Positions 47,056 through 64,000 of a stretch of 64,000 nucleotides of DNA are shown in pieces; the stretch's first letter is position 1, and each line of letters begins with the position of its first letter. Position numbers and translations under genes: made by a program. Below the pieces are notes generated by a model. That model made no database searches. It was not told the origin of the DNA and was given only the letters and a program-made list of their open reading frames with translations. Source of the stretch: Escherichia coli (GTDB taxonomy: Bacteria; Pseudomonadota; Gammaproteobacteria; Enterobacterales; Enterobacteriaceae); assembly GCF_051903065.1 (NCBI RefSeq), contig NZ_CP178439.1; one strand, 5' to 3'.

Positions 47056-47126
47056 TAAACTCTACCCAATCGGGGCAAAAGGCCCCGGTGGGTCTTTTTG
47101 CTCCATGAAGGAATAAGGAGCAAAAT

Positions 47127-47348
47127 ATGACTCAGATAAAAACTTACCGTGTAGAACATGAAAAAGTCGGTGCGATGCATAAAGTCCGTATTTTCGGACG
47201 TGTTGGTGAAGTTATAAGCAATGATAGCCCTCAGGAAAGAATCTTCCGCGAAGTCACTATAGCGGAGGGTAATAGCCAGCAGGCTGCGTTACTTGTAGAT
47301 AACTACATACAGCGTCTTGAGAATAATGGCTTCACGACTGAAGCATAA
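47127..47348 (+). CDS. Hypothetical small protein
   Basis: 73-aa ORF with RBS AAGGAG upstream, between two hairpins. Confidence 0.45.
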   Translation: MTQIKTYRVEHEKVGAMHKVRIFGRVGEVISNDSPQERIFREVTIAEGNSQQAALLVDNYIQRLENNGFTTEA

Positions 47349-47461
47349 ATGTTGAGGGCCCCCGGGCCCTCTTTCTTAAATTCTGCGTTGTGGGTTTCTC
47401 CCTGTCTTCTGCACCGCAGAAGGCATTGAGAAACTCACAATGCCAGATAAGAGAGATCATC

Positions 47462-48694
47462 ATGACTTATGCATCCCCGGCTCTTCGTCGTAATCCACAG
47501 GAAGTATCTGAACACTTTATTAAACTCGTTCATGCTCGAATTGCTGAAGTGTCTGGCTGGAAGTATATATTCGAAAGAATACCTGCTTTCAAAGACGCTT
47601 GTGCAAAAGCCCCGAGCCAGGTTCCTTGCCCGTTTACTGGCGCAGGGAAATCGAAGTTTCGTTTCCGACAAAAAGACCTTTATACCGGATGTGCGATCCA
47701 TAATGACTTTCCGGTAAATGAGTTTTGCGACGGAATTGATGTTCTGGCGAAATATTATGAATTAAGTAAAACGCAGACTTGCAAAAAGATTCTCTCAGAT
47801 TTTTTCGGGATGGATCTGCATGCTCCGTTAACTGACGCCGACATTGAAAATGAACGACGCTATAAATCAGCAGTTCGTGCCACAGAAACTCTTGACCGAG
47901 AGGAAGTGGCAAAGCGAATGCGAAAACTTGATGTGATGTATCACTATACCGGTGAAATCAAGCCTAATACTCCTGTTGCTTTGTACCTCCGTAATCGTGG
48001 GATCTCCCGCTTACTGAGTCACTTACCAAAGGATTTAGGCTTTAATAACCGGATCTACTATTGGGATAAAGATAAGCAGAAATCGATTATCTATCCGGGA
48101 ATGATTGCGATCTATCGTGACACCCGAGGTCGGCCTCTGACTATTCATAGAACATACGTAGACAAAAATGGTGATAAGGCACCTGTAGAAAATCCAAAGC
48201 TGATGATGAAGCCTCCTGCCGATATGACAGGTGGCTCAATTCAGTTGTTTGACCCTCACTATGATTCAGGTAGTTCGACCTGGACACTGGGAGTGGCTGA
48301 AGGGATCGAGAACGCGCTTTCTGTTGTAGAAGCGACTTCAACACCATGCTGGGCAGCCAGCTCCGCATGGTGCCTTGAAAACGTTACTGTTCCTGATTTT
48401 TTACTGCCTCCGCCGGATGTAAAATCTATAAACTTTTATATCTGGGCGGATAAGGATATTGCTAACTCACAAGGCACTCGTGCCGGTATTGAAGCTGCTC
48501 AGCGACTTCAAAGCCGCATGGTTGAGTTTTTGGCTAAACGATATCCCGCATCAAAGCTGACAATTGAAGTCTTCGAACCAGCACAAGATATTCCTGATGG
48601 GAAAAAGGGTATCGACTGGAACGATGTTCTCCAGTTAACAGGGCAGGATGGATTCCCGATTCACTGGGCTCCTGAATGTCTTAATCAGCTGTAA
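47462..48694 (+). CDS. TOPRIM-domain primase-like protein with N-terminal Cys-rich zinc-ribbon-like region
   Basis: CPFTGAGKSKFRF...GCAIHND Cys cluster; TOPRIM-like EGIENALSV (Glu) and IWADKD (DxD). Confidence 0.55.
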   Translation: MTYASPALRRNPQEVSEHFIKLVHARIAEVSGWKYIFERIPAFKDACAKAPSQVPCPFTGAGKSKFRFRQKDLYTGCAIHNDFPVNEFCDGIDVLAKYYELSKTQTCKKILSDFFGMDLHAPLTDADIENERRYKSAVRATETLDREEVAKRMRKLDVMYHYTGEIKPNTPVALYLRNRGISRLLSHLPKDLGFNNRIYYWDKDKQKSIIYPGMIAIYRDTRGRPLTIHRTYVDKNGDKAPVENPKLMMKPPADMTGGSIQLFDPHYDSGSSTWTLGVAEGIENALSVVEATSTPCWAASSAWCLENVTVPDFLLPPPDVKSINFYIWADKDIANSQGTRAGIEAAQRLQSRMVEFLAKRYPASKLTIEVFEPAQDIPDGKKGIDWNDVLQLTGQDGFPIHWAPECLNQL

Positions 48695-48964
48695 CAACGA
48701 TAACTCCCCCGCTTTTTGCGGGGGGGGTTATCTTATCAATATTATATTTTAAAATTGTATTGATAAGATAACCGCTTTCCTTCGTGATAATTACCTGCCT
48801 TTAAGGTCTTTTCACGGCTGAGATGCTTGCTCAGTTAAATAAATGTGCGGTACTACTGGCTATGGTCGGTTGTATGACATGGTTATTCCATAAACTATTA
48901 AAACCCATAACGGGAGTATTACCGTTATGGTGATGCTCGTCGTTTTACATCGGAGAGCATTTTA

Positions 48965-49486
48965 ATGAATTTTCAAATTAACGAAGTTTTTAATAAATTT
49001 GCTGCTGTTATAAAATCGCGCATCGTCAATGAACCATCGTCATGCTATTTGCTGCATGATAATGAGATAGATATAACGATTTTGAAACATAGCATATTAG
49101 AAAATGACAGAAACCTGTTGTACGTAGTTCGTCCTTCAGGAACGTGTTTGTTGCGTTGTGACAAATATTTCTATCCGAAATATTATCTTCGTTGCCGTGG
49201 AGATTATAAGTCATTCATATATGTCCATCTTGATCTACATAGTGGTGAAGCTAAAGAAATCACATGGGAGCAAGCAGACGATATGCTGTCTAGTCCAGGA
49301 AAACCCCCATTAAAAGGGAATCTTGGACGATTTGAGTATATAAAAGTTGTGGTTGAGGACCTTCGTATTCGAGGTTACGCTGATTATCTTCCTGCGTATA
49401 ATCTTGATGACCTTCGCCGTTTTGCCTTACAGGACGACCGCCCATCCCTTGTCAGATACATTGACAATGTCATGGCAACGGTCTGA
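48965..49486 (+). CDS. Hypothetical protein
   Basis: 173-aa ORF; no recognisable motif. Confidence 0.5.
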   Translation: MNFQINEVFNKFAAVIKSRIVNEPSSCYLLHDNEIDITILKHSILENDRNLLYVVRPSGTCLLRCDKYFYPKYYLRCRGDYKSFIYVHLDLHSGEAKEITWEQADDMLSSPGKPPLKGNLGRFEYIKVVVEDLRIRGYADYLPAYNLDDLRRFALQDDRPSLVRYIDNVMATV

Positions 49487-49564
49487 TTGATTGCTAATTG
49501 ATTTACATATTTTCCCTGATGGCCAACCTGCATCAGGGAGGCCTCAATAACGAATGGAGGCTGT

Positions 49565-50443
49565 ATGAAGTTAGCTACGGACCTGGTAAAAGCTATTTTG
49601 ATTAGAAATGGCGTTGAACCAGTAAATATAAGCGAATCATCTAAGTTATCTTTGAAACAACCACTGACAGAACTTAAATTCAGTTTATATTTGCGAACTG
49701 AGCATTTATCTCACTTCCTACCCGGTTATGTTTATTCTATAAAAGAATGTCCACTGTCATATGACATCGGGATCGAAATTCAGAAAATCTTCGAAAGTTT
49801 ACATTTGTTAAACGAAGAATTTGAATCCCTCGGTTTTGTTTCTGTATGGATAGAAATGCATCAAAGCATTTTTGAACAAAGTCGGTTTAAGAAAAGTAAC
49901 TTTACTTTTCGGGAGGAAGAGGTCGAGCTTGCTAAAGGGCTTGTTTGTTCTCACAATTCACAAATAAGTAATGCGGCTTATTTCTGGCTTCAGCACTTTG
50001 AGGAGTTTATGATTTATGTTCGTAATAAGCTTATCGACCTCTTTCGAGAGGCCTATGACCTGATCCTTGGAATGCAGCAAGTATTTTTCATTCGGGAAAA
50101 GGAAGAGCTGTTGAAAACTATAAGTTATGGCGATGAGCTGTATGAGGTGAAATTCATGGCGGCTGAGCTTTACTCTATCGAACAGAACTTAAAGTGTTCT
50201 GAATCGATAAGTACAAAATCTCAAGCTTCGGCATATATTAACCGCATCCGTGAGTTTGTGCGTTCGGGGTGGAGGCAGGGCTATATAGTCTGCCATCATA
50301 AGCGAAGTAATCAAATTTCATCATTGTCATTACCGATGTACTTGAAAGATACGTCAGGCCGAAGTGCTCGAAAGCGAGTAAAACGTCTTATATCTTCTAC
50401 AGTTTGTGGTAGAAATAAAGATTTAGGTCTTACAGATTTTTAA
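49565..50443 (+). CDS. Hypothetical protein, possible distant member of the tandem paralogue family
   Basis: 292 aa; N-terminal pattern LVKAILIRNGV resembles the other members; hairpins on both sides. Confidence 0.5.
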   Translation: MKLATDLVKAILIRNGVEPVNISESSKLSLKQPLTELKFSLYLRTEHLSHFLPGYVYSIKECPLSYDIGIEIQKIFESLHLLNEEFESLGFVSVWIEMHQSIFEQSRFKKSNFTFREEEVELAKGLVCSHNSQISNAAYFWLQHFEEFMIYVRNKLIDLFREAYDLILGMQQVFFIREKEELLKTISYGDELYEVKFMAAELYSIEQNLKCSESISTKSQASAYINRIREFVRSGWRQGYIVCHHKRSNQISSLSLPMYLKDTSGRSARKRVKRLISSTVCGRNKDLGLTDF

Positions 50444-50513
50444 TTAAATTATACCCATGTGGGGATCACACCCCATATGGGAGTGATCCCTTTTTTTATT
50501 GAGAGAGGATCAC

Positions 50514-51269
50514 ATGAAAATTATCGAAAAAATCATTAATGCCTTTTTGGTTGTTCAACATAAAAAAATACAGGTTAAAAACATTACATTTTTAGACAAT
50601 GGGCAGGGCATGTTCTCTGGTATGTCTTTTGATGCTGATGTTTCACTGGAGTTTATGTATGAATCAGCAAAAGCATATAGTTCTTGTTTCTGTGATATTC
50701 CCTTTCCAGGTTTTGAAGATGCAAATCTGGAGGAAATTACGAAATTTCAATTAGATGCTCTGAAGCAAAGAAAGAATCATTCTTTCTTTGTTAACCATTT
50801 GAGGTTTCCTATAGTTTTAAGGGAAGGGTGCAAAATCGAAAGAGGAGAAGTCTATTCAATTTCGAATTGCACTTATAATAAAGAAAGATTGCAGTATCTT
50901 TTTTCTCAGGATATTTACGGTAAGTTGTATAATTCCTTAGAGAAAGAATTAAGCTCGTTTTTCTCATTTATCAATGTTGAGGTGCACGAGTTGTTAAAAG
51001 ATGCTGTATGCTTTGCATTAAAAATCCTGAATAAGATATCTTTGGATACACCTGAAAGACTTATTAAAGCTTTTAATTATCGTGACTGGTATTGTAGTTA
51101 CGATGTTGAGCTTTTTAGGAAAGGCTTACCTGGTCATATTCTGGAAGAGCTCATTGCTCCAGATATCTTACTTTCAGACCTTAACGGTTGTAGAAAAATA
51201 CTTAGAAATGCAAAACGATTTCTAAATGGACATACACAAACCAATTGTGTTTATATTAAATATGAATGA
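50514..51269 (+). CDS. Hypothetical protein, possible distant member of the tandem paralogue family
   Basis: About 251 aa; ATG at 50514 after RBS GAGAGG; N-terminal IEKIINAFLVV pattern. Confidence 0.5.
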   Translation: MKIIEKIINAFLVVQHKKIQVKNITFLDNGQGMFSGMSFDADVSLEFMYESAKAYSSCFCDIPFPGFEDANLEEITKFQLDALKQRKNHSFFVNHLRFPIVLREGCKIERGEVYSISNCTYNKERLQYLFSQDIYGKLYNSLEKELSSFFSFINVEVHELLKDAVCFALKILNKISLDTPERLIKAFNYRDWYCSYDVELFRKGLPGHILEELIAPDILLSDLNGCRKILRNAKRFLNGHTQTNCVYIKYE

Positions 51270-51517
51270 TGGTTGGGGCCTGTTGATACCTCACACTCAG
51301 CTAAGTTGATGTCTGACAAAGAAATTAATAACCGAAGTGACTTGAAGAATTTTTCAAAGGTCTTTTTCAAAGAGTGTTTAAGTTCTGGTAAGTCGGAATA
51401 TGAAAACCATCTTAGTGAAAAAGAACATGCGCTTCGCTATAATTATTAATTAAAATTATTTTCTCCCATAGGGATTTCTCCCTATGGGAGAAATCCCTCT
51501 ATTAAGAGGGTATTGAA

Positions 51518-52438
51518 ATGAATGCTATACAAAAGTTAGTTGAATCTATTCTTGTTAAAATGGGTTTTGTTGGCGCTGTAGTGGAAAATATATATTTGGA
51601 TTCAAAACCATTTCGGCATATTCGATTTGTGGCTGATATTCCAGTAATATCTTTTCTACCTCATTTGGTGAAATATCTTAAGGGTGCAGACCATCTTTAC
51701 AGTGGTAACGATGATTTGCATCCTCTTTTCATTTATTTTTCCGAAGCGGCTACATTAAAAGCAGGTCCTGTAAATCTCGCGAACTTTCGTTTTGAAGTTT
51801 CTATAGCTTCAACTCATTTACGACTGGTCTCAGAGCAGCCTGATTTGCTTTTCAAAGGATTTAACCGGGATAATCTAGAATACGTTTATTACCGCTCAGA
51901 TTTGGCCTCTAAGGATCTTATACTAGGCCTTGTTGAACACGGTTCTCCTTTCATAAAACATCTACATGGACTTATACAAAAGCGAATTTTAAACGAGTTC
52001 TCTCTGATTTTTTCTGTTCTTGAAAAGATTTTAGAAAGCGCGAAGCCACAAATTCTTGCTTGCTTCCATAGTGTTGATTATGAAATGAACGTAAAAATAA
52101 TAGCCGAAGCTATACCTGAAACTGTATCTAATCAGATAGTCACATCTGATTATATAGTTAATTCTATATCAGATGCGGACAAGTTTATAAATCATGTTCG
52201 TCGCTATTTAGCAGGCAGGGTAATGAAGAGGCGGATATACGCTGAATTAGATGTTTGTGAAGAAACATCAAGTATTTCACTAGTGAACTTAGGATGCTTT
52301 ACGTCTCCTCTGCTCGTTACGGAATATCAAATGTTTAAGCCACACTCTTCAGGGTTATATCGAAAAGCTATAAACAACTCCTTAAAACAGTTCAAACCAG
52401 AAATGCATGTACCTTCTGAAGAACTCTTTTATAATTAA
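51518..52438 (+). CDS. Hypothetical protein, possible distant member of the tandem paralogue family
   Basis: 306 aa; N-terminal QKLVESILVKMGF pattern; hairpins on both sides. Confidence 0.5.
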   Translation: MNAIQKLVESILVKMGFVGAVVENIYLDSKPFRHIRFVADIPVISFLPHLVKYLKGADHLYSGNDDLHPLFIYFSEAATLKAGPVNLANFRFEVSIASTHLRLVSEQPDLLFKGFNRDNLEYVYYRSDLASKDLILGLVEHGSPFIKHLHGLIQKRILNEFSLIFSVLEKILESAKPQILACFHSVDYEMNVKIIAEAIPETVSNQIVTSDYIVNSISDADKFINHVRRYLAGRVMKRRIYAELDVCEETSSISLVNLGCFTSPLLVTEYQMFKPHSSGLYRKAINNSLKQFKPEMHVPSEELFYN

Positions 52439-53357
52439 TCTAACCCATCCGGGAACCTGCTTCCCGGTGGGAAGCACTTCCTTTTTAGTCATGAGGTAGT
52501 GTAAATGTTTAAAGAATCTGACCACGTGGAATTTGTTAGTGCCTTTCTTTATCAAAATTTAGGCCTTAATGTTTCCGCTGACGATATAACCGTTCAATTA
52601 TCTGATACTTCGTTCGACAAAGTAACCTTTGATTACGATGTAGATATCGATAATTTAAATTGTATGTTGGATCTCTACATATCTGAGCTAATAAAGCACA
52701 ACGCATCTTACTCCGATTCTATTCTTTTGAAACAAAAAATAATTTATTTTCTTGGAGTATTTAAGAATTTCGGATTTTTTACGTTTGATATTCGCGGATA
52801 TAGTAATACTTTAAGCCCAGTTAAAGTTATTGATATTGTTTCAATGATTATTAATGACTGTGAAGAGTTATCTAAAGCTAATTCTTCTACTGATGCTATA
52901 AGAAATCTTTATCTCGATAAAATGAAGGTGGATGGGAAAGTGTTAGTTGCGAAATTTGCACTTAAACAGTTTTTTCATTCCGACTTTGGTGACTTTATCT
53001 CATTTGTCGAGAAAAGAATTACAGATTGTCTTAATGAAACTTTAAGGATTATCAAAGCTGTTGAACATGGCTTTGTACGTGTAGGGCAGCATAAGATTAA
53101 TCGCCGTATTAATGATGACTTAAAGTTATGCATTGATTTCAATACTGATGATTATCCGGCAAATATGCCAGATATATATATTAAGTTTAACGATACATTT
53201 GATGGGAACGGGGCGTTATATTGTGACAATGATGCCCTCATATCCCTCTATACCGATGTTGCTTCAATTATCAATGTGCCGGTGATGATGGAAGTAAGAT
53301 TGATCAATAAAAGAGGGCGTGTTGTCTGTGATTCTTCGCATTCAACTTACGTATCTC

Positions 53358-54414
53358 GGCTTTGTTGAATAAATCGAACTTTTGCTGAGTTGAAGGATCA
53401 GATCACGTATCTTCCCGACAACGCAGACCGTTCCGTGGCAAAGCAAAAGTTCAAAATCACCAACTGGCCCACCTACAATAAAGCCCTCATCAACCGTGGC
53501 TCCATAACTTTCTGGCTGGATGATGAAGCTATTCAGGCCTGGTATGAGTCAGCAACACCTTCTTCACGAGGCAGACCTCAGCGCTATTCTGACCTTGCCA
53601 TCACGACTGTGCTGGTCATTAAACGCGTATTCAGGCTGACCCTGCGCGCTGCGCAGGGCTTTATTGATTCCATTTTTTCTCTGATGAACGTTCCGCTACG
53701 CTGCCCGGATTACAGCTGTGTCAGCAGGCGGGCAAAGTCGGTTAATGTCAGTTTCAAAACGCCCACCCGGGGTGAAATCGCACACCTGGTAATTGATTCC
53801 ACCGGGCTGAAGGTCTTCGGTGAAGGCGAGTGGAAAGTCAAAAAGCATGGCCAGGAACGCCGCCGTATCTGGCGTAAGCTGCATCTCGCCGTTGACAGTA
53901 AAACACATGAAATCATCTGCGCTGACCTGTCGCTGAACAACGTTACGGACTCAGAGGCCTTCCCCGGGTTAATCCGGCAAACCCACCGGAAAATCAGGTC
54001 AGCCGCCGCCGATGGCGCTTACGATACCCGGCTATGTCACGATGAACTGCGGCGTAAGAAAATCAGCGCGCTTATCCCTCCCCGAAAAGGTGCGGGTTAC
54101 TGGCCCGGTGAATATGCAGACCGTAACCGTGCAGTGGCTAATCAGCGAATGACCGGGAGTAATGCGCGGTGGAAATGGACAACAGATTACAACCGTCGCT
54201 CGATAGCGGAAACGGCGATGTACCGGGTAAAACAGCTGTTCGGGGGTTCACTGACACTGCGTGACTACGATGGTCAGGTTGCAGAGGCTATGGCCCTGGT
54301 ACGAGCGCTGAACAAAATGACGAAAGCAGGTATGCCTGAAAGCGTGCGTATTGCCTGAAAACACAACCCGCTACGGGGGAGACTTACCCGAAATCTGATT
54401 TATTCAACAAAGCC
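53358..54414 (+). mobile_element. IS903-like insertion sequence (IS5 family), complete, 1057 bp
   Basis: 18-bp inverted repeats GGCTTTGTTGAATAAATC at 53358 and GATTTATTCAACAAAGCC ending 54414; perfect 9-bp direct repeat ACGTATCTC at 53349-53357 and 54415-54423. Confidence 0.9.
53435..54358 (+). CDS. tnpA: IS903 transposase
   Basis: VAKQKFKITNWPTYNKALINRGSITFWLDDEAIQAWY matches the IS903/IS102 transposase as I remember it; GTG start gives 307 aa. Confidence 0.85.
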   Translation: MAKQKFKITNWPTYNKALINRGSITFWLDDEAIQAWYESATPSSRGRPQRYSDLAITTVLVIKRVFRLTLRAAQGFIDSIFSLMNVPLRCPDYSCVSRRAKSVNVSFKTPTRGEIAHLVIDSTGLKVFGEGEWKVKKHGQERRRIWRKLHLAVDSKTHEIICADLSLNNVTDSEAFPGLIRQTHRKIRSAAADGAYDTRLCHDELRRKKISALIPPRKGAGYWPGEYADRNRAVANQRMTGSNARWKWTTDYNRRSIAETAMYRVKQLFGGSLTLRDYDGQVAEAMALVRALNKMTKAGMPESVRIA

Positions 54415-54680
54415 ACGTATCTCTCGAAAGTAATGACCGATACAGAGTAACTGATCGCACATTACTAATAACTGAAGCTTTTGACGATTTTCGTAACGCG
54501 TCTCAATGATCCTTTTGCTTCAGTCCAAAAAAGTAACTTTGGTTGGCTGAAGACACTTGTCTATGACAATGTAAAATCTGTCGCTGGCATCTTCTTTTAG
54601 CTTAACCAAATTTTTATCTAACCCAGTGGGGAAGTCGCTTCCCTTCTGGGGCACTTCCTCTCAAATTCGAGGTAGTGTAT

Positions 54681-55637
54681 ATGACACATTCATCTGATGA
54701 TAAAAACTATGTCCGAGCAGTTCTGAGTTATCTTGGCATAGATTTTGATGAGGCGGATATAGTATTAAGTGTTTGCCATTGTCAAAGTGACGAGCTTTCT
54801 TTTACCTGTAATATCAAAGCTATTGAACTCAAGAATGCTGTTGATTTATATGTCGATAGTATCTCTGAGAATGAAATAGAAGCTTTAAACAGAGAATCTT
54901 TAAAATCGCGACTCTGTTACTTTCTTGAGGTGTTTGACGCAGTCTCTGGTCAGTACCTTGAAATTTCAGGAAAACACTTTGCAACTAGTCGTTTTGAATA
55001 TGATGATGTTTGTAGTGAAGTTCTTAGCATGTCTAATGATGTTTCTCAGTCGAAAGGTTATGACCGGGATGAATATAACAGACTGATGCAGGTTGATGGT
55101 CAGGTTATGATTGCCCGTTTTGCTTTGCAACAGTTCTGGGATACTCATTTTATTGGACTAATAACATTTGTATCTGAGTCTATAACATCGAGCCTCTATA
55201 AAGCTTATGAAACTTTTAGTGATATTAGTTTGGCTTGCTATAAACTGAGTGAATATTCTTATTCACGCTCTATCAACAGTGAATTGACCCTTAATATTTC
55301 ACTTAAAGAAAATGACTTCTGTGAGGACCTATCTGATTGCTATATGGAAGATGAGGCTTTACCTTCTGGTAGGGTAATTTCTCGACGCAACAATGACTCC
55401 ATAATAAGTATTTATGAGAGCTATGCTGCGGCTTCTTATATTCCGATGATTGCATCTTTGGAAGTCGTTGATGAATACGGCGAAGTGGTTACTGACCTCT
55501 GCCATACCGTTTATGTTTCAGAGTTAACCGGTGGGCGGATTAAAATCCACGACCGTAATGACTTAGTATCTGAAGTTTTCGATAACCTAAGAAATTTAAA
55601 TCTTGCAGTTGGAGATTCAGTTTCACAAGCTGCTTGA
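54681..55637 (+). CDS. Hypothetical protein, intact paralogue of the IS903-disrupted gene
   Basis: About 318 aa; aligns along its length with the 52505 product; same upstream context GAGGTAGTGTA(A/T)ATG. Confidence 0.6.
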   Translation: MTHSSDDKNYVRAVLSYLGIDFDEADIVLSVCHCQSDELSFTCNIKAIELKNAVDLYVDSISENEIEALNRESLKSRLCYFLEVFDAVSGQYLEISGKHFATSRFEYDDVCSEVLSMSNDVSQSKGYDRDEYNRLMQVDGQVMIARFALQQFWDTHFIGLITFVSESITSSLYKAYETFSDISLACYKLSEYSYSRSINSELTLNISLKENDFCEDLSDCYMEDEALPSGRVISRRNNDSIISIYESYAAASYIPMIASLEVVDEYGEVVTDLCHTVYVSELTGGRIKIHDRNDLVSEVFDNLRNLNLAVGDSVSQAA

Positions 55638-55900
55638 TTCTTTCCCTGATTTTGATTTTTTCTCACATACTCTTATGGCACGGTTTCCGTGCCTTTTTTT
55701 TGCCTCGCTTACAAGCGTCTACTCCTCTTCTACCTATCCCACCTTACATCACCACTTAAAATCTATCTTTCTAATTCCATTATCCTTTTCGTAGCCTCTA
55801 ATGCTCTGGTATGAACATACTCTTTAAACTCAAAAAAGTGCTATTAACGAAAAAAAATCCCTAAAGAGATTTGTATACTGTTCTCAACCAAGGAGAGCTC

Positions 55901-56176
55901 ATGAATGAACTAAAATCCAAAAACGAGAACAGTACCAAAAGCAACTTTCCCCCGGTTGATAATCAGTTTTGCTTTTACCATGTTGATTTCAGCATAGAAC
56001 GACTACTTTCTACGGCCGAGGATCTCCAGCTTGAGTACATCTTCCAGAAACCTGGAAGTGAAGTAAGAAAGGATTTGGTTGAGCGATTCGAACGTGGAGA
56101 GCGCTTTGTTACAGCTTCACACTGTGACAATTTCTGTGAAATCCTTGGTTGTCAAGGCCATCAGGAAAATGCATAA
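55901..56176 (+). CDS. Hypothetical small protein
   Basis: About 91 aa from the ATG after RBS AAGGAGAG (track ORF 55871). Confidence 0.45.
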   Translation: MNELKSKNENSTKSNFPPVDNQFCFYHVDFSIERLLSTAEDLQLEYIFQKPGSEVRKDLVERFERGERFVTASHCDNFCEILGCQGHQENA

Positions 56177-56220
56177 ACCCATAAACCTACATTTCCACTT
56201 TTAAGGATGTTCACTAAAGA

Positions 56221-56811
56221 ATGATTGGAGAAAGTATTTTTGACTGGGTAATTTACGGAATATCCATTTTGATATTTGCCTCAGCACTAATTGAAGGAAA
56301 GACAACTCGCTACCCAGCACTTTTTTTCTATGGGAGTTTAATTTTAATGTTAATCCTGATAGTTGCTGGAGGCCTTAACTGGTGGTTCTACAGGTCAAAA
56401 TATGGCGCAGTAATCGTTATCTTCACAGTGGTTTCTTTACTGATGACTCGATTCCGCCTGGTCATATATAAATTAAGATTAAGAAAGTTAGTTTCAGAGA
56501 TCAGATTTCGTATAAAAACGGGTTTTCGTATAATTCTTGTTTTGTCGGATAATGAGGATGAGCGTAATGTTCTGCTGTCTATGCTTAGCAACGTATTGCC
56601 AGAGCAAACGCTTATTCACACGCGTGATGCTCTCGGACCTCATTCAGGGCCTATCCTAAAAGCTCTTGAGCTACATCATCAACAGGGAACAGGTTACATA
56701 CTCGTCTGTGAACAACAAATCTCAGCGCGTACGTGGTTGAGTATCGTAGAAAATGGGAAACCTGATACATCTATAGCTGTTAATTTTCATTCGATCCCAG
56801 AAATGGAGTGA
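56221..56811 (+). CDS. Hypothetical membrane protein (three predicted N-terminal helices plus soluble domain)
   Basis: 196 aa; hydrophobic segments at residues 10-25, 35-55 and 62-80. Confidence 0.5.
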   Translation: MIGESIFDWVIYGISILIFASALIEGKTTRYPALFFYGSLILMLILIVAGGLNWWFYRSKYGAVIVIFTVVSLLMTRFRLVIYKLRLRKLVSEIRFRIKTGFRIILVLSDNEDERNVLLSMLSNVLPEQTLIHTRDALGPHSGPILKALELHHQQGTGYILVCEQQISARTWLSIVENGKPDTSIAVNFHSIPEME

Positions 56812-56818
56812 TTTTTCA

Positions 56819-57076
56819 ATGAGTAGAACCGTTTCACAAAGTGTCACAGAAGATTGTCTTTTTGATACCCGCACACAAGTCAGATTACAACTAAGTCGAA
56901 GCGTTCATAAAACGCTGGCATCTGCTAAAGAAATTTTACAGGGAAGGGGGGTTGATTCGGTCTCTATTGAAGATCTTGTGCGAGCCTGTCTTGAAGAGAA
57001 CCAGCCAATTGATCTCGCCTCACTTTACCTTGAAAATCTCTTAAAACAGAAAGGTACCAGCATTTGCGATTTTTAG
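56819..57076 (+). CDS. Hypothetical small protein
   Basis: 85-aa ORF 8 bp after the preceding stop. Confidence 0.4.
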   Translation: MSRTVSQSVTEDCLFDTRTQVRLQLSRSVHKTLASAKEILQGRGVDSVSIEDLVRACLEENQPIDLASLYLENLLKQKGTSICDF

Positions 57077-57149
57077 TGTTTTCAAACCTATTAGATAAAA
57101 TGCCGGTTGTGTTTATATAACATCAATAATTTCATGCAACAGGTAAAAC

Positions 57150-57686
57150 ATGAGTACTCAAAAGCAACTTTCCAGAACAACCGGCACTGAACGTATGTTT
57201 AAGGAAGAGCTGGCGTTATCCTTAATTTGTTGGGTTTTCACCAGTCCATTTACCAACTGGACCGATAAAGTCTTCAGTGGTATTGAAGTTCCGTCTGAAG
57301 GACCGTCAACATTACTGGGTGAGGCTGAAAAATTCTTTCGTTTTGTCGTTAATGAAGAAGGCTACGACGCAGGAAGGGCTGCTCTTGGTCTTGACCTATG
57401 TTGTTTTTCACTTCCGTCGTGTTTGTTCCCGGACGCTGCCCTGTCTGAGGAAGAGGTTATGAGTAAGTTAACCGGAGAAGTTATCCATGGGATTCTTCTT
57501 TCCTTACCTGAATTTATTGATATGCCAGAAGTGCTCGCTTACCAGGTCAGGGATGAAATTCTTGCTTTTAACACTCGCTGTGGAGACGGGATCTTTCATG
57601 GTTGGAACACGGCTTCAGAATTGTGGAAGTTTGAAATCTTTCCCCGCACCACCATCATGATGCAGCATACTTCGGCAATACATTAA
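57150..57686 (+). CDS. Hypothetical protein
   Basis: 178-aa ORF. Confidence 0.45.
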   Translation: MSTQKQLSRTTGTERMFKEELALSLICWVFTSPFTNWTDKVFSGIEVPSEGPSTLLGEAEKFFRFVVNEEGYDAGRAALGLDLCCFSLPSCLFPDAALSEEEVMSKLTGEVIHGILLSLPEFIDMPEVLAYQVRDEILAFNTRCGDGIFHGWNTASELWKFEIFPRTTIMMQHTSAIH

Positions 57687-57702
57687 AATTAGGCGGGGCA
57701 GA

Positions 57703-58149
57703 ATGCATAAAAAACTTTTTCTTCTCGAATGGAAACCCTGTCAGAGCCGCGTATGGGCCGGTTGGATGGCCCTGTGGTTGACTATCAGTTTTCTGATGTT
57801 ATCTGCCTTGCTTATGACAGATCATCTCCTGAACAAAGTCATCCTGCCGCCAACATGGTTGTTGATCTGGTTTTCGCCAATGCTGGGGTTTTTGATAAAA
57901 GTTCGCGTCGTCGAAACTCAACATTTCCTGGAGCATGACCTCTGTGTTGCAGGTTTCTCTTTTTACCGCTGGAAGAGGTTAGTTTCTCCCGGGCTTTGGT
58001 CAGTTGACTGTATAAATGGTCGTTTTCGCCTCAATCGGATCACCCAGGTGGGTAAGACTATCCACTATCCATGGCGTCTCCATTATCATCCTTTGTTCAT
58101 GAGCCCTATCGAACATAAATCGCATGCTGTGAAAGCTGTTTCAAAATGA
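57703..58149 (+). CDS. Hypothetical membrane protein
   Basis: 148 aa with two hydrophobic helices. Confidence 0.45.
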   Translation: MHKKLFLLEWKPCQSRVWAGWMALWLTISFLMLSALLMTDHLLNKVILPPTWLLIWFSPMLGFLIKVRVVETQHFLEHDLCVAGFSFYRWKRLVSPGLWSVDCINGRFRLNRITQVGKTIHYPWRLHYHPLFMSPIEHKSHAVKAVSK

Positions 58150-58221
58150 CTTCTTTAGAGGTTTACATGACATTTATGTTCTGCAAGGTCAGCCAGGGCA
58201 GCAAAATTGATTTGAAATAAC

Positions 58222-59202
58222 ATGAGCCTGGAGAAACGTATGAGTTATGACGATTTGCCCTATTTTCGTGACCAGATTCTGGAACGTATCGACTCGCTTA
58301 AGTGTTTTCTTTCGAACACCCCCCCGCTGATGGCAAACCTGATGACTGTCTCCACCGTATCTCGAACAGAAGAGCGACTGAAGCAGGTTAAACCCATCAG
58401 GGTTAGTGTTAAAGACGATGCTTCGGTTGAGGAAATTATTCAGGCACTTACTGACATCTGTGTGGATGACATAGAGTCATTAAGTCATGATTCCACCAAA
58501 GTGACCACTAAATACCCGGGTCTTATCATTGTCCCAGAAAGAGCAGATCTTCTCGAAAGCTTGATCACATCTATAAATGAAGCAAAAAATGATTTTGCTG
58601 CGGCAATGAGGCGTATCGATAATAAAAAGAATGTCCGTTTTGATAAAGTGCACAAGAAGCTCCCGGGCCTTGTCGCTATGCACTCAACAAGAAATGTCCT
58701 TTTCATCAAGTCCCAGCTTAAAAAAGTTACTTTTTCATGGCGGCTAAACCGAAACCAGGAAGTTAAAACAGCAGAGCAACTTGTGAGTTTGTTGGAGCGC
58801 AGGAGAGCCTCAGAAGTAAAAAATGTAGCAACTACCAATTTGAATGTCGTGTCTAATATCGATAAGGCTTTACACCGTCTTGAATTTCACCCACTGAAGC
58901 AGGGCGAATCTTATCGCCTTTGTCGAACTAACTCTTTCCCTGTTCCGATTGCTCACATTTTTGCATTTAGGCCTGAAGGGCAGGAACGAAACGGGAATAA
59001 ATATGCTGAGACTGATTATTCAGTAGTAAAAGCATCCTTGCCCATTTTCGCAGCAGGCAACATACCTCAATTAAAAACGCTCTCTGACTGGGCTCCTGAA
59101 AACAGCCAGGGCCCGTCCAACCAACGGAAGCTGAGCCTGAAATATACAGAACTCGTGCCGGGGGCTGAGCTGGGCATTTTCATTGTCAGCCCCGAAAATT
59201 AA
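58222..59202 (+). CDS. tus: Tus-like replication-terminus-binding protein
   Basis: RFDKVHKKLPGLVAMHSTRNVL aligns with the E. coli Tus segment [21 protein letters not shown] as I remember it; 326 aa against about 309 for Tus. Confidence 0.55.
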   Translation: MSLEKRMSYDDLPYFRDQILERIDSLKCFLSNTPPLMANLMTVSTVSRTEERLKQVKPIRVSVKDDASVEEIIQALTDICVDDIESLSHDSTKVTTKYPGLIIVPERADLLESLITSINEAKNDFAAAMRRIDNKKNVRFDKVHKKLPGLVAMHSTRNVLFIKSQLKKVTFSWRLNRNQEVKTAEQLVSLLERRRASEVKNVATTNLNVVSNIDKALHRLEFHPLKQGESYRLCRTNSFPVPIAHIFAFRPEGQERNGNKYAETDYSVVKASLPIFAAGNIPQLKTLSDWAPENSQGPSNQRKLSLKYTELVPGAELGIFIVSPEN

Positions 59203-59211
59203 GGAACAACA

Positions 59212-60117
59212 ATGCAATGGATTTCCACAGCCAGCCAGAAAATCGATGAGCGTCTCTATCGTGTCTGTGTCTGGGTAAAAAAATATCACGCTGATGCGAT
59301 TAACCGCGTTGTGCTTACCGTTGATCTAAGTAAAGCCCGACATGACCCTGACGAGGACCAGGTAAGAGCAGAGCTGCTGTGCGGCCATTATTTTTTGCTT
59401 CGTAAGGAAAACGCTTCGAACTCTGCGCCTGACGATCAAAAGTTTGCTTTCCTGCCTGACGGGCGCAATCTGTGTTGGCAGACCGCAACCCCGGTGCTTC
59501 AGCATCTCCTGCTCAATAAAAACGTTCCTGAGTCGCTGAGGTTGCTTACGGACTACATACATATGCGTCTGGCCAGGCTGACAATGGTACCAATGTCCGG
59601 AACCATCATGAACGAGGCTCTGCTGGACAGCATCAGCTGGGTTAAGGTGGATTTGACCTACTTCTGGCAGTACGAACAGCTCAGCTCTCATCTGGGACCC
59701 ATCCAGATAACCCACAAGGCACTAGTACGCTTCGGGCATCTGGCAAAGAATGATGAAAACTCCAGTGCCATAAGAATCCTGCGTCAGCGTCTGTCTTCAG
59801 AATTCTTACAAGAATTTCAGATGGCTGAGGATGAGCTAAAGCGCAAACAGTCGTTGATGGGCACCATGGACGTGAAAATGCTGTTTCATGCTCATTACCC
59901 CAGCCAGAAGATGCTGGTGGCTCGATATAAAAATGGTTGGGTAATGGTGGATTGTTTTCTGTTTCATCATACCAAACCTAAGAAAAAAGCAAAAAACAAA
60001 ACTACTGTGGCTAAGCCTCAACTTAAAGAGACTAAAAGAGAAGGGAGTGAAAATGGAACTGGGCATTATGGTGTGCATCGTGTTGTTACTCTCCGTGGCG
60101 GCGGCGTGGATCAGTAA
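59212..60117 (+). CDS. Hypothetical protein
   Basis: 301-aa ORF 10 bp after the tus-like stop; Lys-rich C-terminus. Confidence 0.5.
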   Translation: MQWISTASQKIDERLYRVCVWVKKYHADAINRVVLTVDLSKARHDPDEDQVRAELLCGHYFLLRKENASNSAPDDQKFAFLPDGRNLCWQTATPVLQHLLLNKNVPESLRLLTDYIHMRLARLTMVPMSGTIMNEALLDSISWVKVDLTYFWQYEQLSSHLGPIQITHKALVRFGHLAKNDENSSAIRILRQRLSSEFLQEFQMAEDELKRKQSLMGTMDVKMLFHAHYPSQKMLVARYKNGWVMVDCFLFHHTKPKKKAKNKTTVAKPQLKETKREGSENGTGHYGVHRVVTLRGGGVDQ

Positions 60118-60397
60118 TAAGACAGTTGATTTGCTCGAAAGATTCTATTTCAAGCGTCCGCTGAGCATGGAGTACGCGGCATGGCTACGTGTAATGTGTG
60201 CAGGCTTGTTATTGGTTTTTATTCAGGTTGCTCCACAATTTACACTTCTGTATACCCTTAAACTTGTCACGCTTATTAATCTTGGAATCCAGACAATGAA
60301 ATTAAATGGCGTGTACAAATATAAAAGAACGGGAATTTTGCCTCCGGGAGGGGCACTCTCTAATCTCACCAGACTTAACCCGTTCAAGAAAAAATAA
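60053..60397 (+). CDS. Hypothetical small membrane protein
   Basis: About 114 aa; ATG at 60053 after RBS AAGGGAG; two hydrophobic helices; overlaps the end of the upstream ORF. Confidence 0.4.
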   Translation: MELGIMVCIVLLLSVAAAWISNKTVDLLERFYFKRPLSMEYAAWLRVMCAGLLLVFIQVAPQFTLLYTLKLVTLINLGIQTMKLNGVYKYKRTGILPPGGALSNLTRLNPFKKK

Positions 60398-60400
60398 AGT

Positions 60401-60420
60401 TATGCGCCCGTGAGGGCGCT
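60401..60420. terminator. Hairpin between convergent genes
   Basis: GCGCCCgtgaGGGCGC inverted repeat. Confidence 0.4.
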
Positions 60421-61603
60421 ATTCATCAAAGGCATTTCGCATAAGCTTGATCATTGCTTTTTTACCAGCTTCAATATTACGAATGTAGCGCATAACCATT
60501 TCTTCATTCGACCAGTTCCCCATTTCCATAATCTGTGGTAGCGAGTAACCTTCAATATTTAGCTGTATCGCTCCGCCTACACGAACGCTGTGCCCTGTCC
60601 AGTAACGAGTTTTAGTCTCATTTGGATAAAGCTCATTCCACATCTCTTTAAATGCTCGTAAAAGGGAATTTTTGCTGAGCATACCGGCATCGTCCACAGT
60701 GTCTTCTTCATCTTCATCGTTCAGAAGACTTTGCTTAGCACGATAGGGTAGGTTATGCCTTTTAAGAAGTTCAGATAGCTCATTCCCCTTACTCCGAAGC
60801 TTCCAGCCGGGTGGCATATAGCCTGTATCATGGAAATTTACGGCCTGGAAAAGGAATTCATCCGGATGACTGTGCTGATCCATTTTCACGAGGTTCATCA
60901 ATCTCAAGAGGCAGTTAGTTAACTGACGTGTCAGCCGGTAGGTAAGAAGTGTACTAATGTTCGTTTTTGTACGGTATACCGTCAGGTTAAATTCACCGGT
61001 CATACTATCCAGAGACAGATCTTTCAGACGTATACGTCGAATTTCGGATGAACGGAGCAGTGTTTCAAAGCCTGTCCAGATCAGGCACAGGTCACGAAGT
61101 TTACGAACTGAGTTTGTAGTACTGCGTAACTTTATCAGAGCCTTGAGATCGCCAATAAGAAAGGGAGTTGCCTGTTTAGTCGTCTTTCGCTTCCGGGCTT
61201 CCGATTGTTTTAAGGCTTCCAGCATGTACCATGCTTCAGACGTAATAATCCCGGGCAGGTTAAGCCCTTTTTTATGGATACTATTTAAGGCCTGAAGACA
61301 GCTGTTTATGCTGCTTCGTGACAATTTGCCTTCAAGATGCCCCATAAACGCAAGCAGAGCGTCCTCAGACACGGGGAGCGAACTTACTGGCCAGTCTGTA
61401 TGCAACCGGGCATTCGCCAGATACCATTCGTTCCATACTCGTAGCCAGTGCAGATAGGTTTTAGCAGTGTTGTATCTCAGATGGGAAAAGTAACGGATCA
61501 AGCGTGAAAGCTGTTTATCATGGTTGCCGAACGTTTCCAGCTGCTGATGCAATTCGCTTTCCGAAAACTGTCTGATCACTGATTGATTCTTCATCCTGCT
61601 CAC
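60419..61603 (-). CDS. Tyrosine site-specific recombinase (phage-integrase / Xer-like family)
   Basis: 394 aa; C-terminal catalytic signature LLRSSEIRR (Arg), HSVRVGGA (His-x-x-Arg) and MRYIRN (Tyr). Confidence 0.8.
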   Translation of the reverse strand: MSRMKNQSVIRQFSESELHQQLETFGNHDKQLSRLIRYFSHLRYNTAKTYLHWLRVWNEWYLANARLHTDWPVSSLPVSEDALLAFMGHLEGKLSRSSINSCLQALNSIHKKGLNLPGIITSEAWYMLEALKQSEARKRKTTKQATPFLIGDLKALIKLRSTTNSVRKLRDLCLIWTGFETLLRSSEIRRIRLKDLSLDSMTGEFNLTVYRTKTNISTLLTYRLTRQLTNCLLRLMNLVKMDQHSHPDEFLFQAVNFHDTGYMPPGWKLRSKGNELSELLKRHNLPYRAKQSLLNDEDEEDTVDDAGMLSKNSLLRAFKEMWNELYPNETKTRYWTGHSVRVGGAIQLNIEGYSLPQIMEMGNWSNEEMVMRYIRNIEAGKKAMIKLMRNAFDE

Positions 61604-61764
61604 CGGGATACACTGGTTTTAATTACAGGTCATTTTAGCACTCATGTACCTGGTTATGAACAGGGTGGAAACAACGAAAAAGGTTGTGAAATCGTTAGGC
61701 TTAAGTGAAAAATGATATTAAGATTATCCCTGGCCAGTTGAGGCCTGTCTAAAGAAGGTTGATT

Positions 61765-61977
61765 ATGTCTGACACAAAGCAGTCTTATTTAATGAAATTC
61801 CGTAAGTGTAGTTCGTTCGAAACGCTCGAAAAAGTATTTGAAAGGTTATGTGAAAAAAACTCGGGTGTCGCCTCTCTTGAAATTTCTGGTGCTTATGATC
61901 ATCGTAAAGCCGAACTGACAATGAAAAAGTTATATGACAAAGTTCCTGCGAGTGTGTGGACCTTTGTTCGCGAGTAA
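61765..61977 (+). CDS. hha: Hha/YmoA-family nucleoid-associated modulator
   Basis: KQSYLMKFRKCSSFETLEKVFE...AYDHRKAELTMKKLYDKVPASVW aligns with Hha/YmoA as I remember them; ATG at 61765 after RBS AAGAAGG. Confidence 0.75.
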   Translation: MSDTKQSYLMKFRKCSSFETLEKVFERLCEKNSGVASLEISGAYDHRKAELTMKKLYDKVPASVWTFVRE

Positions 61978-62184
61978 TTATTAATATTGGCACAACAAAA
62001 AGACTGTGCCTGGATTTGAAAATAGTTTATGCCCCTTTCGGGGCTAAAGGCATTGTAATAGCCTGTCTTTTAAAGTTGTTTATTAAGTTCGGAGAAAAAC
62101 TTTAATCATAAGCCAAGCCCACTGCTAAATACATCCGATATTCTCCTTCATTTTATTAGAAGTGATAAAAGTTACTTTACCTAA

Positions 62185-64000
<1,816 letters not shown>

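What the first reader, a model, noticed from the sequence alone, without database searches (positions are those of the whole stretch)
55901..60397. Block of small and membrane proteins of unknown function around the Tus-like gene
Seven compact co-oriented ORFs (91, 196, 85, 178, 148, 301 and 114 aa), three with transmembrane helices, none with a motif I recognise. Their position between the paralogue array and the recombinase makes them candidates for small regulators, toxin-antitoxin-like pairs or exclusion functions.
Basis: inference. Interest (0 to 1): 0.35.

Follow-up and report, generated by a model that had tools for sequence, protein, structure and literature searches.

The report
Conserved IncHI plasmid operon, unknown function
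The seven small genes are real, conserved and expressed backbone genes of IncHI multidrug-resistance plasmids that form one operon with a Tus-like gene, but their job is still unknown and published deletions of the R27 counterparts did not affect plasmid stability.

Summary
The window is IncHI2 plasmid backbone, 100% identical to pAPEC-O1-R. The seven ORFs (91, 196, 85, 178, 148, 301 and 114 aa) match the RefSeq gene calls, and three have TM helices.

They are not spurious:
- The whole block, including the Tus-like gene and a convergent Cre-family recombinase, keeps its order and gene lengths in more than ten IncHI-like lineages, down to about 30% identity.
- dN/dS is 0.2 or below wherever it can be computed.
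- IncHI1 homologues were detected by mass spectrometry.
- The block has its own conserved -10 promoter element and follows the upstream gene's terminator.

All seven families are restricted to IncHI-like elements and match no Pfam, NCBIfam, PHROG or PADLOC model and no PDB sequence.

The toxin-antitoxin and exclusion readings are not supported. R27 deletions of these genes left stability unchanged, and eexB maps elsewhere.

My best but weak hypothesis is an accessory DNA-handling module for replication termination and dimer resolution. These are known, uncharacterised backbone genes of moderate to low interest.

The parts
55677..55701 (+). Intrinsic terminator of the preceding paralogue gene (GGCACGG-loop-CCGTGCC followed by T8). 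It marks the upstream boundary of the block's transcription unit.
   Evidence: Terminator scan. The hairpin and T-run are invariant in 8 lineages while the surrounding DNA cannot be aligned.
55870..55882 (+). Invariant 13-nt motif TTTGTATACTGTT containing a near-consensus -10 hexamer TATACT (55874-55879), about 10 nt upstream of the SD of the first gene. Inferred to be the operon promoter; a superimposed operator cannot be excluded.
   Evidence: Alignment A12. The motif occurs once per locus and only at this position. The distant lineages L015-L017 carry TATAAT at the equivalent place.
55901..56176 (+). o91: small acidic soluble protein with invariant H27, C75, C84 and H87 (C-x8-C-x2-H near the C-terminus). 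A metal (zinc) site is inferred.
   Evidence: motif invariant in 11 lineages. Strong SD AAGGAG. No family hits.
56221..56811 (+). o196: three N-terminal TM helices, a basic amphipathic linker, and a ~100-aa cytoplasmic beta-alpha (Rossmann/flavodoxin-like) domain without a P-loop.
56819..57076 (+). o85: small, mainly helical protein (three predicted helices). A weak HTH hint only.
   Evidence: Low-confidence model. TetR_N E 0.076, below threshold.
57150..57686 (+). o178: acidic soluble alpha/beta protein (net charge about -12), restricted to IncHI-like elements.
   Evidence: (34 clusters). Model pLDDT 65-84. No PDB sequence or fold match. The IncHI1 homologue was detected by MS in four plasmids.
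57703..58149 (+). o148: conserved N-terminal LLEWK motif, two TM helices, and a ~80-aa beta-rich C-terminal domain with a WSVD..NGRYRLNRI motif.
58240..59202 (+). [quoted passage not shown] In other lineages a DUF2913 gene precedes it; that gene is missing here.
   Evidence: Pfam Ter E 4.6e-19, 69 bits against a cut-off of 22. Below the NCBIfam equivalog cut-offs. DUF2913 gene present in L002, L007, L008, L009, L015 and L017.
59212..60117 (+). o301: two-domain protein. The N-terminal domain has an RNase H-like fold (about residues 1-142) lacking conserved catalytic carboxylates. A second alpha/beta domain spans about 144-250. The tail is disordered and Lys-rich. The gene starts 9 nt after tus.
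60053..60397 (+). o114: small basic membrane protein with 2-3 TM helices. It overlaps the end of o301 by 65 nt, so translational coupling is likely.
   Evidence: Only sub-threshold hits to the conjugation membrane families TcpE (E 0.045) and TraG_N (E 0.016 for the L015 homologue).
60419..61594 (-). Cre-family tyrosine recombinase, convergent with the operon and co-conserved with it. It lies outside the finding's coordinates but belongs to the conserved neighbourhood.
   Evidence: phmmer E 1.8e-23 to P1 Cre. Pfam Phage_integrase. Synteny.
61765..61977 (+). hha (Hha/YmoA family nucleoid-associated modulator), the conserved neighbour divergent from the recombinase.
   Evidence: Annotation. Pfam HHA in the related loci.

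Best explanation
SHOWN (about 0.9 confidence): the seven ORFs plus the Tus-like gene are co-oriented and tightly packed, with a conserved -10 element upstream. This is consistent with a single backbone operon of IncHI-type conjugative plasmids. The R27 counterparts are R0184-R0186 and the neighbouring small ORFs R0187 onward. The operon follows the terminator of the preceding gene and runs into a convergent Cre-family recombinase gene. Its proteins are under purifying selection and several are expressed. They are restricted to IncHI-like elements of Enterobacterales.

INFERRED (about 0.25 confidence): the operon is an accessory plasmid DNA-handling module that acts at replication termination and multimer resolution. 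The Tus-like protein would arrest forks. The 301-aa protein is translated 9 nt downstream of tus. It has a catalytically degenerate RNase H-like fold and a Lys-rich tail, so it would act as a nucleic-acid-binding partner rather than a nuclease. The Cre-like recombinase would resolve dimers, as Cre does for the P1 plasmid. The three small membrane proteins and the small soluble proteins (a His/Cys metal-binding 91-aa protein, a helical 85-aa protein and an acidic 178-aa protein) would organise or regulate this at the membrane. The module would be redundant under laboratory conditions, because IncHI plasmids carry several replicons and two partition systems.
For: Identity and conservation.

Synteny of the whole block with Tus and the recombinase in more than ten lineages, down to about 30% identity.

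Purifying selection.

Operon signals: upstream terminator, no strong internal terminator, short gaps, and an invariant -10 motif unique to this position.

Expression: peptides of the IncHI1 recombinase, 302-aa protein, Tus and 178-aa protein in four plasmids.

DNA-related context:
- Tus family hit.
- Cre family hit.
- Neighbours are Toprim/primase-like, CoiA-like nuclease and Hha.

The tus-o301 gap of 9 nt, and o301 sitting next to or overlapping o114, are conserved.

The Photorhabdus plasmid keeps the block without the paralogue array, so the block is an independent unit.
Against: - No protein in the block other than Tus has a demonstrated or family-level link to termination or resolution.
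- R27 single deletions of the recombinase, the 114-aa gene, the 302-aa gene and Tus, and a deletion of the small ORFs, did not lower stability in E. coli.
- No E. coli-type Ter site occurs above chance, and no lox-like inverted repeat was found nearby.
- One lineage (L016, probably Photorhabdus) keeps the five small genes and the o301 homologue but lacks Tus, o114 and the recombinase. Their function therefore cannot depend strictly on Tus or Cre.
- Membrane proteins are not a known part of Tus or Cre systems.
- The models of the small proteins are only of moderate confidence and gave no specific fold matches.
Confidence: 0.3

Rival explanations
1. Recipient-establishment or host-interaction genes. 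The small acidic soluble proteins (o91, o178) and o85 would inhibit or modulate host factors, such as defence, SOS or nucleoid proteins, after transfer. The membrane proteins would alter envelope physiology. Linkage to Tus and Cre would be merely historical.
For: The proteins are small, lineage-restricted and unrecognisable, and o91 and o178 are acidic. This is typical of plasmid anti-defence or host-modulating genes (general knowledge; the theme of PMC11541004 listed). The block evolves faster than o301 and o114. L016 keeps the small genes without Tus or Cre. The neighbourhood holds other 'accessory DNA' genes: Toprim, AAA ATPase/VWA and CoiA-like.
Against: No match to any known family, although no dedicated anti-defence library was available. 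From my own knowledge, not verified here, oriT of R27 lies in Tra1, so this block would not be in the leading region. The rigid gene order with Tus across deep divergence argues for functional coupling. Three of the products are membrane proteins.
Confidence: 0.2
2. Accessory conjugation or mating-related envelope components, expressed together with the neighbouring Tra2 genes at low temperature.
For: The block lies about 15 kb downstream of the Tra2 genes trhN and trhI. There are three membrane proteins. o114 and its L015 homologue give weak hits to the conjugation membrane families TcpE (E 0.045) and TraG_N (E 0.016). Peptides were detected in cultures grown at 24 C, the transfer-permissive temperature.
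Against: The family hits are well below the curated cut-offs. The block has its own promoter and is separated from the tra genes by about 12 kb of unrelated genes. From my own knowledge, not verified here, classical transposon mapping of transfer-deficient R27 and R478 mutants identified only Tra1 and Tra2. Tus, the RNase H-like protein and Cre are not conjugation components.
Confidence: 0.15
3. One reading: toxin-antitoxin-like pairs or entry or phage exclusion functions.
Confidence: 0.08
4. Spurious ORFs or decaying pseudogenes.
For: There are no recognisable domains, the region has low G+C, and two products (the 196-aa and 91-aa homologues) were never seen by MS.
Against: Intact frames of conserved length persist in more than ten lineages with saturated synonymous divergence and dN/dS of 0.2 or below. 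Residue motifs are invariant. SD sequences are present. Peptides were detected for several homologues. The structure models for o301 and the o196 C-domain are confident.
Confidence: 0.01

Closest known systems
Counterpart ORFs of the IncHI1 prototype plasmid R27 (R0184, R0185, R0186 = Tus, and the small ORFs R0187 onward) and the same genes in IncHI2 plasmids such as pAPEC-O1-R
   Same: Same genes, same order and nearly the same lengths. Identity to IncHI1 is 46-80% at the amino-acid level, and 100% to many IncHI2 plasmids.
   Different: IncHI2 lacks the DUF2913 gene that sits between the 148-aa gene and tus in other lineages; R27 keeps a 92-aa remnant. None of the genes has an assigned function in any record.
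Chromosomal Tus-Ter fork trap together with dif/XerCD dimer resolution in the E. coli terminus region (an analogy for the proposed mechanism)
   Same: A Tus-family protein sits next to a tyrosine recombinase, both conserved together.
   Different: The Tus is highly divergent: it falls below the equivalog cut-offs and gives no phmmer hit to the solved Tus. No E. coli-type Ter site was found. The recombinase is Cre-like rather than Xer-like. The seven accessory proteins have no chromosomal counterpart.
Phage and plasmid P1 Cre/loxP
   Same: The recombinase matches Cre at E about 2e-23. Cre resolves dimers of the low-copy P1 plasmid (established knowledge).
   Different: No lox-like 13-bp inverted repeat with a short spacer was found within 55600-62350. 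In R27, deleting the recombinase gene did not reduce stability.
RNase H-like fold superfamily (RNase H1, RuvC-like domains, retroviral integrase cores, the Prp8 RH domain)
   Different: No conserved acidic residue lies on strand 1 or strand 4; only E48, D49 and E54 on helix 1 are conserved. It therefore resembles non-catalytic members such as the Prp8 RH domain more than a nuclease. It also has an extra C-terminal domain and a Lys-rich tail.

Membership tests
Tus / Ter-binding protein (Pfam PF05472), for the gene at 58240-59202 | Match to the family HMM above the curated gathering score | tested here: met
   69 bits against a cut-off of 22, E 4.6e-19, covering profile positions 10-208 of 296
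Tus / Ter-binding protein | Equivalog-level similarity to chromosomal Tus | tested here: not met
   NCBIfam NF002810 gives 53 bits against a cut-off of 323, and TIGR02648 gives 21 against 178. There is no phmmer hit to the solved Tus at E<=0.01.
Tus / Ter-binding protein | Presence of a cognate Ter site (E. coli-type ATGTTGTAACTA core) | tested here: inconclusive
   7 matches with 2 or fewer mismatches against 6.6 expected by chance. A divergent Tus may recognise a different sequence.
RNase H-like fold superfamily (o301, N-terminal domain) | Three-layer fold with a five-stranded mixed sheet in the order b1-b2-b3-a1-b4-a2-b5 | tested here: met
RNase H-like nucleases | Conserved catalytic carboxylates (DEDD/DDE) on strand 1, helix 1 and strand 4 | tested here: not met
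   In the 14-sequence alignment A9, strand 1 (residues 2-12) has invariant I4, S5 and T6 and no conserved Asp or Glu. Strand 4 (87-91) has W89 only. Only E48, D49 and E54 on helix 1 are conserved. Residues were mapped by secondary structure, not by inspecting a superposition.
Type II toxin-antitoxin systems | Sequence match of either partner to a known toxin or antitoxin family | tested here: not met
   No hits in Pfam, NCBIfam or PADLOC. Profile searches against PDB sequences gave only E>1 hits to antitoxins.
Type II toxin-antitoxin systems | Toxin fold (RelE/ParE-like) | tested here: inconclusive
Type II toxin-antitoxin systems | Post-segregational killing or plasmid stabilisation phenotype | not testable with these tools
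   Published R27 deletions of R0183-R0186 (singly) and Del17 (R0187-R0198) showed no significant loss of stability (PMC4853401).
IncHI entry/surface exclusion (EexA/EexB) | Identity with the mapped exclusion genes | tested here: not met
   Exclusion in R27 is attributed to EexA/EexB. eexB is listed among the Tra2 genes between parA and parM, about 35 kb upstream of this block. The exact position of eexA was not verified.
Cre-family tyrosine recombinases (gene at 60419-61594, minus strand) | Sequence match to Cre and to the Phage_integrase catalytic domain | tested here: met
   phmmer E 1.8e-23 to Cre. Pfam PF00589 E 1.8e-13, 51 bits against a cut-off of 27.1.
Cre-family tyrosine recombinases | A lox-like target (about 13-bp inverted arms with a 6-8-bp spacer) next to the gene | tested here: not met
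   No such repeat in 55600-62350. The site could lie elsewhere on the plasmid.
Known anti-phage defence systems | Match to any PADLOC model | tested here: not met
   0 families for all nine proteins

The most novel reading that the evidence does not exclude
The operon encodes a so far unrecognised, membrane-associated plasmid 'terminus machine'. A divergent Tus would work with a catalytically dead RNase H-fold DNA-binding partner, a Cre-like resolvase and a set of small membrane and metal-binding proteins. Together they would couple replication termination and dimer resolution of very large low-copy plasmids to the envelope. This would be a plasmid-borne functional analogue of the chromosomal Tus/Ter plus dif/XerCD/FtsK arrangement, built from unrelated proteins.
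Probability: 0.12. Interest if true: 0.6.

Novelty: already known. Interest (0 to 1): 0.3.

Why it matters
IncHI1 and IncHI2 plasmids are major carriers of multidrug resistance, including typhoid MDR, mcr-1, mcr-9 and tet(X4). About two thirds of their backbone genes have no known function. This block is among the most rigidly conserved parts of that dark matter: nine genes keep their order down to about 30% identity, always beside a plasmid Tus and a Cre-like recombinase. If it does handle replication termination or dimer resolution, or alternatively establishment in new hosts, it would be a backbone-specific target for destabilising these plasmids. It would also give a function to plasmid-encoded Tus proteins. 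As it stands, it is a well-delimited set of known unknowns with a few new structural leads, not a surprise.

Tried and rejected
1. Family libraries. Pfam, NCBIfam, PHROGs and PADLOC gave nothing for the seven proteins. Pfam also gave nothing for the distant homologues, apart from DUF2913 for the extra gene.
2. Profile searches of A1-A4, A6 and A8 against PDB sequences gave only E>0.05 noise.
3. Broad homology searches for o301, o178 and o196 and the exhaustive HMM search for o301 found only IncHI-like relatives with no annotation.
5. hhalign between the o301, o178 and upstream paralogue families showed no relationship.
6. An E. coli-type Ter motif search gave chance-level results. Searches for lox-like inverted repeats and other repeats found nothing convincing.
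7. An Rfam scan gave one sub-threshold hit, Ocean-VII at 20.9 bits against a cut-off of 53.5, which I take as chance.
8. I tested whether the invariant upstream motif marks a regulon. It occurs only once per plasmid region, so that idea is rejected.
9. Literature searches by R27 ORF names, TraDIS, leading region or anti-defence, and multimer resolution found nothing specific.


Full report
WHAT THE WINDOW IS. The region 55600-61700 is 100% identical to many IncHI2 plasmids such as pAPEC-O1-R (NC_009838.1). It matches 1,418 PLSDB records, mostly conjugative MOBH/MPF_F plasmids of Escherichia, Salmonella, Enterobacter and Klebsiella. The window runs from the RepHI2 initiator through the Tra2 transfer genes (trhA-like to trhN, trhI). 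It continues through an AAA ATPase/DUF3150/VWA/Toprim cluster and an array of about 300-aa paralogues to the block in question. It ends with a tyrosine recombinase, hha and a CoiA-like gene.

CHECK OF THE OBSERVATION. The seven ORFs are exactly as described and coincide with the RefSeq CDS calls. They are co-oriented and tightly packed: gaps are 7-90 nt, o301 and o114 overlap by 65 nt, and o114 ends 21 nt from the convergent recombinase gene. Hydropathy analysis gives three TM helices in o196, two in o148 and two to three in o114, and none in the other four. No Pfam, NCBIfam, PHROG or PADLOC model matches any of the seven. The eighth gene is a divergent Tus (Pfam Ter, E 4.6e-19).

ARE THE ORFS REAL GENES? 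Yes.
- IncHI1-type plasmids (L002-L004, L012) carry the same genes in the same order with almost identical lengths, at 46-80% amino-acid identity.
- Further lineages recovered through homologues of o301 and o178 keep the same order. These are L007, L008/L011/L013, L009 (a Photorhabdus tasmaniensis contig), L010 and L014.
- Three very distant lineages (L015, L016, L017; 29-49% identity) and a frameshift-ridden assembly (L006) still have recognisable homologues of all five small upstream genes in order.
- Synonymous divergence between lineages is saturated while frames stay open and lengths are conserved. Where dS is computable, dN/dS is 0.08-0.21.
- Each family has invariant residues. o91 has H27...C75-x8-C84-x2-H87. 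o148 has WSVD...NGRYRLNRI. o196 has NWW and AVNFH.IP motifs.
- Most genes have SD sequences.
- A proteomic study of four IncHI1 plasmids in S. Typhimurium lists the genes in the same order as here. It detected the recombinase, the 302-aa protein, Tus and the 178-aa protein in all four plasmids. The 114-aa, 151-aa and 85-aa products were seen sporadically, and the 196-aa membrane protein never (PMC5390554 Table S3). I assigned table rows to genes from gene order, so that mapping is an inference.

OPERON STRUCTURE. A strong intrinsic terminator (55677-55693 plus a T-run) follows the last paralogue gene. In an alignment of the 260-420-nt upstream regions of eight lineages almost nothing aligns except two invariant elements. 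One is that terminator. The other is a 13-nt motif, TTTGTATACTGTT (55870-55882), about 10 nt upstream of the SD of the first gene. The motif contains TATACT. It occurs exactly once per locus and nowhere else in the window beyond chance. The three most distant lineages have TATAAT at the equivalent position. I read it as the -10 element of the block's own promoter; this is an inference with no transcript data. No convincing -35 element is conserved, so activator dependence or H-NS/Hha control is possible but untested. No strong terminator lies inside the block.

WHAT THE PROTEINS LOOK LIKE. All families are narrow. o301 has 13 clusters among 5.8 billion proteins and 19 representatives in the exhaustive HMM search. 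o178 has 34 clusters and o196 has 27. All come from IncHI-like contexts and none carries a Pfam domain. Profile searches against PDB sequences found nothing.

I modelled the soluble parts of the five small proteins as a linker-joined chimera with a paired 11-lineage alignment.
- The o196 C-domain is a b-a-b-a-b-a-b-a-b sandwich (pLDDT 75-84) with no P-loop.
- o178 is alpha/beta (pLDDT 65-84).
- o91 has a helical core with a poorly modelled Cys/His end.
- o85 has three low-confidence helices.
- The o148 C-domain is a beta-meander (pLDDT about 60-66).

The block's families are unrelated to each other and to the upstream paralogues by hhalign. The recombinase is a Cre-family enzyme (E 1.8e-23 to Cre).

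WHAT IS KNOWN EXPERIMENTALLY. In R27 the recombinase, the 114-aa gene, the 302-aa gene and Tus are R0183-R0186, and the small ORFs begin at R0187. Tassinari et al. deleted R0183-R0186 singly and in combinations. They also deleted 163,001-168,600 (Del17, R0187-R0198). None of these reduced stability in E. coli MG1655. The instability of their Del16 mapped to the incC repeats of the adjacent RepFIA replicon. In an evolution experiment with the IncHI2 plasmid pJXP9, the 'hypothetical protein region B3 between terY2 and trhI', which contains this block, was retained while MDR and Tra1 regions were deleted. Exclusion in IncHI1 is attributed to EexA/EexB, and eexB is listed among the Tra2 genes between parA and parM. 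I found no paper that assigns a function to any gene of the block.

HOW IT MOST LIKELY WORKS. What is shown: this is a conserved, separately promoted, expressed operon of lineage-restricted proteins that includes a Tus homologue and always faces a Cre-like recombinase.

What is inferred: the recognisable neighbours are all DNA-transaction proteins (Tus, Cre-like, Toprim/primase-like, CoiA-like nuclease, Hha). In addition, the best-conserved unknown (o301, 78% identity between IncHI1 and IncHI2 against about 60% for Tus) has a nucleic-acid-enzyme fold with a basic tail and is translated immediately after Tus. The most economical hypothesis is therefore an accessory module for replication termination and dimer resolution of these very large low-copy plasmids, with the membrane and small soluble proteins as organisers or regulators. 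I put this at about 0.25.

It is weakened in three ways. The published R27 deletions showed no stability phenotype, although redundancy with three replicons and two partition systems, and only about 100 generations in rich medium, limit that test. No Ter or lox site could be identified. And L016 keeps the small genes and o301 without Tus, o114 or the recombinase.

The rivals are a recipient-establishment or host-modulation role (0.2), accessory conjugation components (0.15), TA or exclusion (0.08) and spurious ORFs (0.01). The remainder covers functions I cannot name.

COMPARISON WITH KNOWN SYSTEMS AND NOVELTY. The block is the IncHI2 copy of known, annotated but uncharacterised backbone genes, so as an object it is already known. 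Membership holds at family level for Tus and for the Cre family. o301 joins the RNase H-like fold class structurally but fails the catalytic-residue test. TA, defence and exclusion memberships are not met.

New from this analysis:
- the delimitation of the unit, including promoter, terminator and the ancestral gene set with DUF2913;
- its depth of conservation;
- the RNase H-like fold of the R0185-type protein;
- the putative metal site of o91;
- the domain architectures of o196 and o148.

VERDICT. This is a real and well-conserved, but ordinary, known-unknown plasmid backbone operon. Interest is about 0.3.

Noticed in passing
window 58150-58239 (between o148 and the Tus-like gene): IncHI2 (this window and L014) lacks a ~205-aa DUF2913 gene. 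In L002, L007, L008, L009, L011, L015 and L017 that gene sits here and overlaps the start of tus. R27-type plasmids keep only a 92-aa C-terminal remnant. The ancestral block was therefore nine genes plus the recombinase.
   Followed up: partly
window 52505-54358: An IS5-like element (transposase at 53390-54358; pAPEC-O1-R carries an ISKpn26-family IS5 copy at a different site) has inserted into the paralogue array. The paralogue at 52505-53368 matches the 312-aa reference protein over only its first 284 residues (99.6% identity), so it is truncated in this plasmid.
   Followed up: yes
window 62308-63929: The CoiA_N-like gene downstream of hha is cut after residue 161 of 360 (100% identical up to there) by an IS21-family insertion (istA at 62907-63929).
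   Followed up: yes
window ~50200-55637 and L001 7032-12038: The upstream array of five to six ~300-aa paralogues is extremely divergent internally (12-18% identity between copies), yet each copy is conserved between IncHI1 and IncHI2. The array is absent from the Photorhabdus plasmid contig L009, which still has the block. It is unrelated to o301 and o178 by hhalign.
   Followed up: partly
window 59990-60117 (o301/o114 overlap): The C-terminal ~25 residues of o301 (GTGHYGVHRVVTL...) are conserved only in lineages where o301 overlaps o114. They are missing in L008, L015 and L017, where o301 stops earlier. This tail therefore looks like a by-product of reading the o114 start region in another frame rather than a functional part of o301.
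   Followed up: partly
window 55876-55885 and 55925-55934: A perfect 10-nt inverted repeat (TACTGTTCTC / GAGAACAGTA) brackets the SD and start codon of o91. In the mRNA it could form a hairpin that occludes translation initiation. Its left arm overlaps the invariant promoter motif. I did not check whether the right arm is conserved.
   Followed up: no
R27 168,601-175,050 (equivalent to the Toprim/paralogue region upstream of the block, roughly window 47000-52000): In the published R27 deletion series, deletion 18 (R0199-R0205), immediately upstream of the block, could not be obtained despite repeated attempts. This hints at an essential or toxic-when-unbalanced function there (PMC4853401).
   Followed up: no
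L016 7600-10786 (GCA_001280945.1 contig LJCS01000011.1): This distant relative keeps the five small genes and the o301 homologue next to TraN and Toprim genes. It has no Tus, DUF2913, o114 or recombinase within 10 kb and is followed by TonB-receptor and NRPS/PKS genes. It may be a decayed or rearranged element. It is useful as a natural 'deletion' for working out which genes depend on each other.
   Followed up: partly
window 56488-56519: A sub-threshold Rfam hit to the Ocean-VII sRNA (20.9 bits against a gathering score of 53.5, E 0.013) lies inside the o196 coding sequence. It is most likely chance.
   Followed up: no
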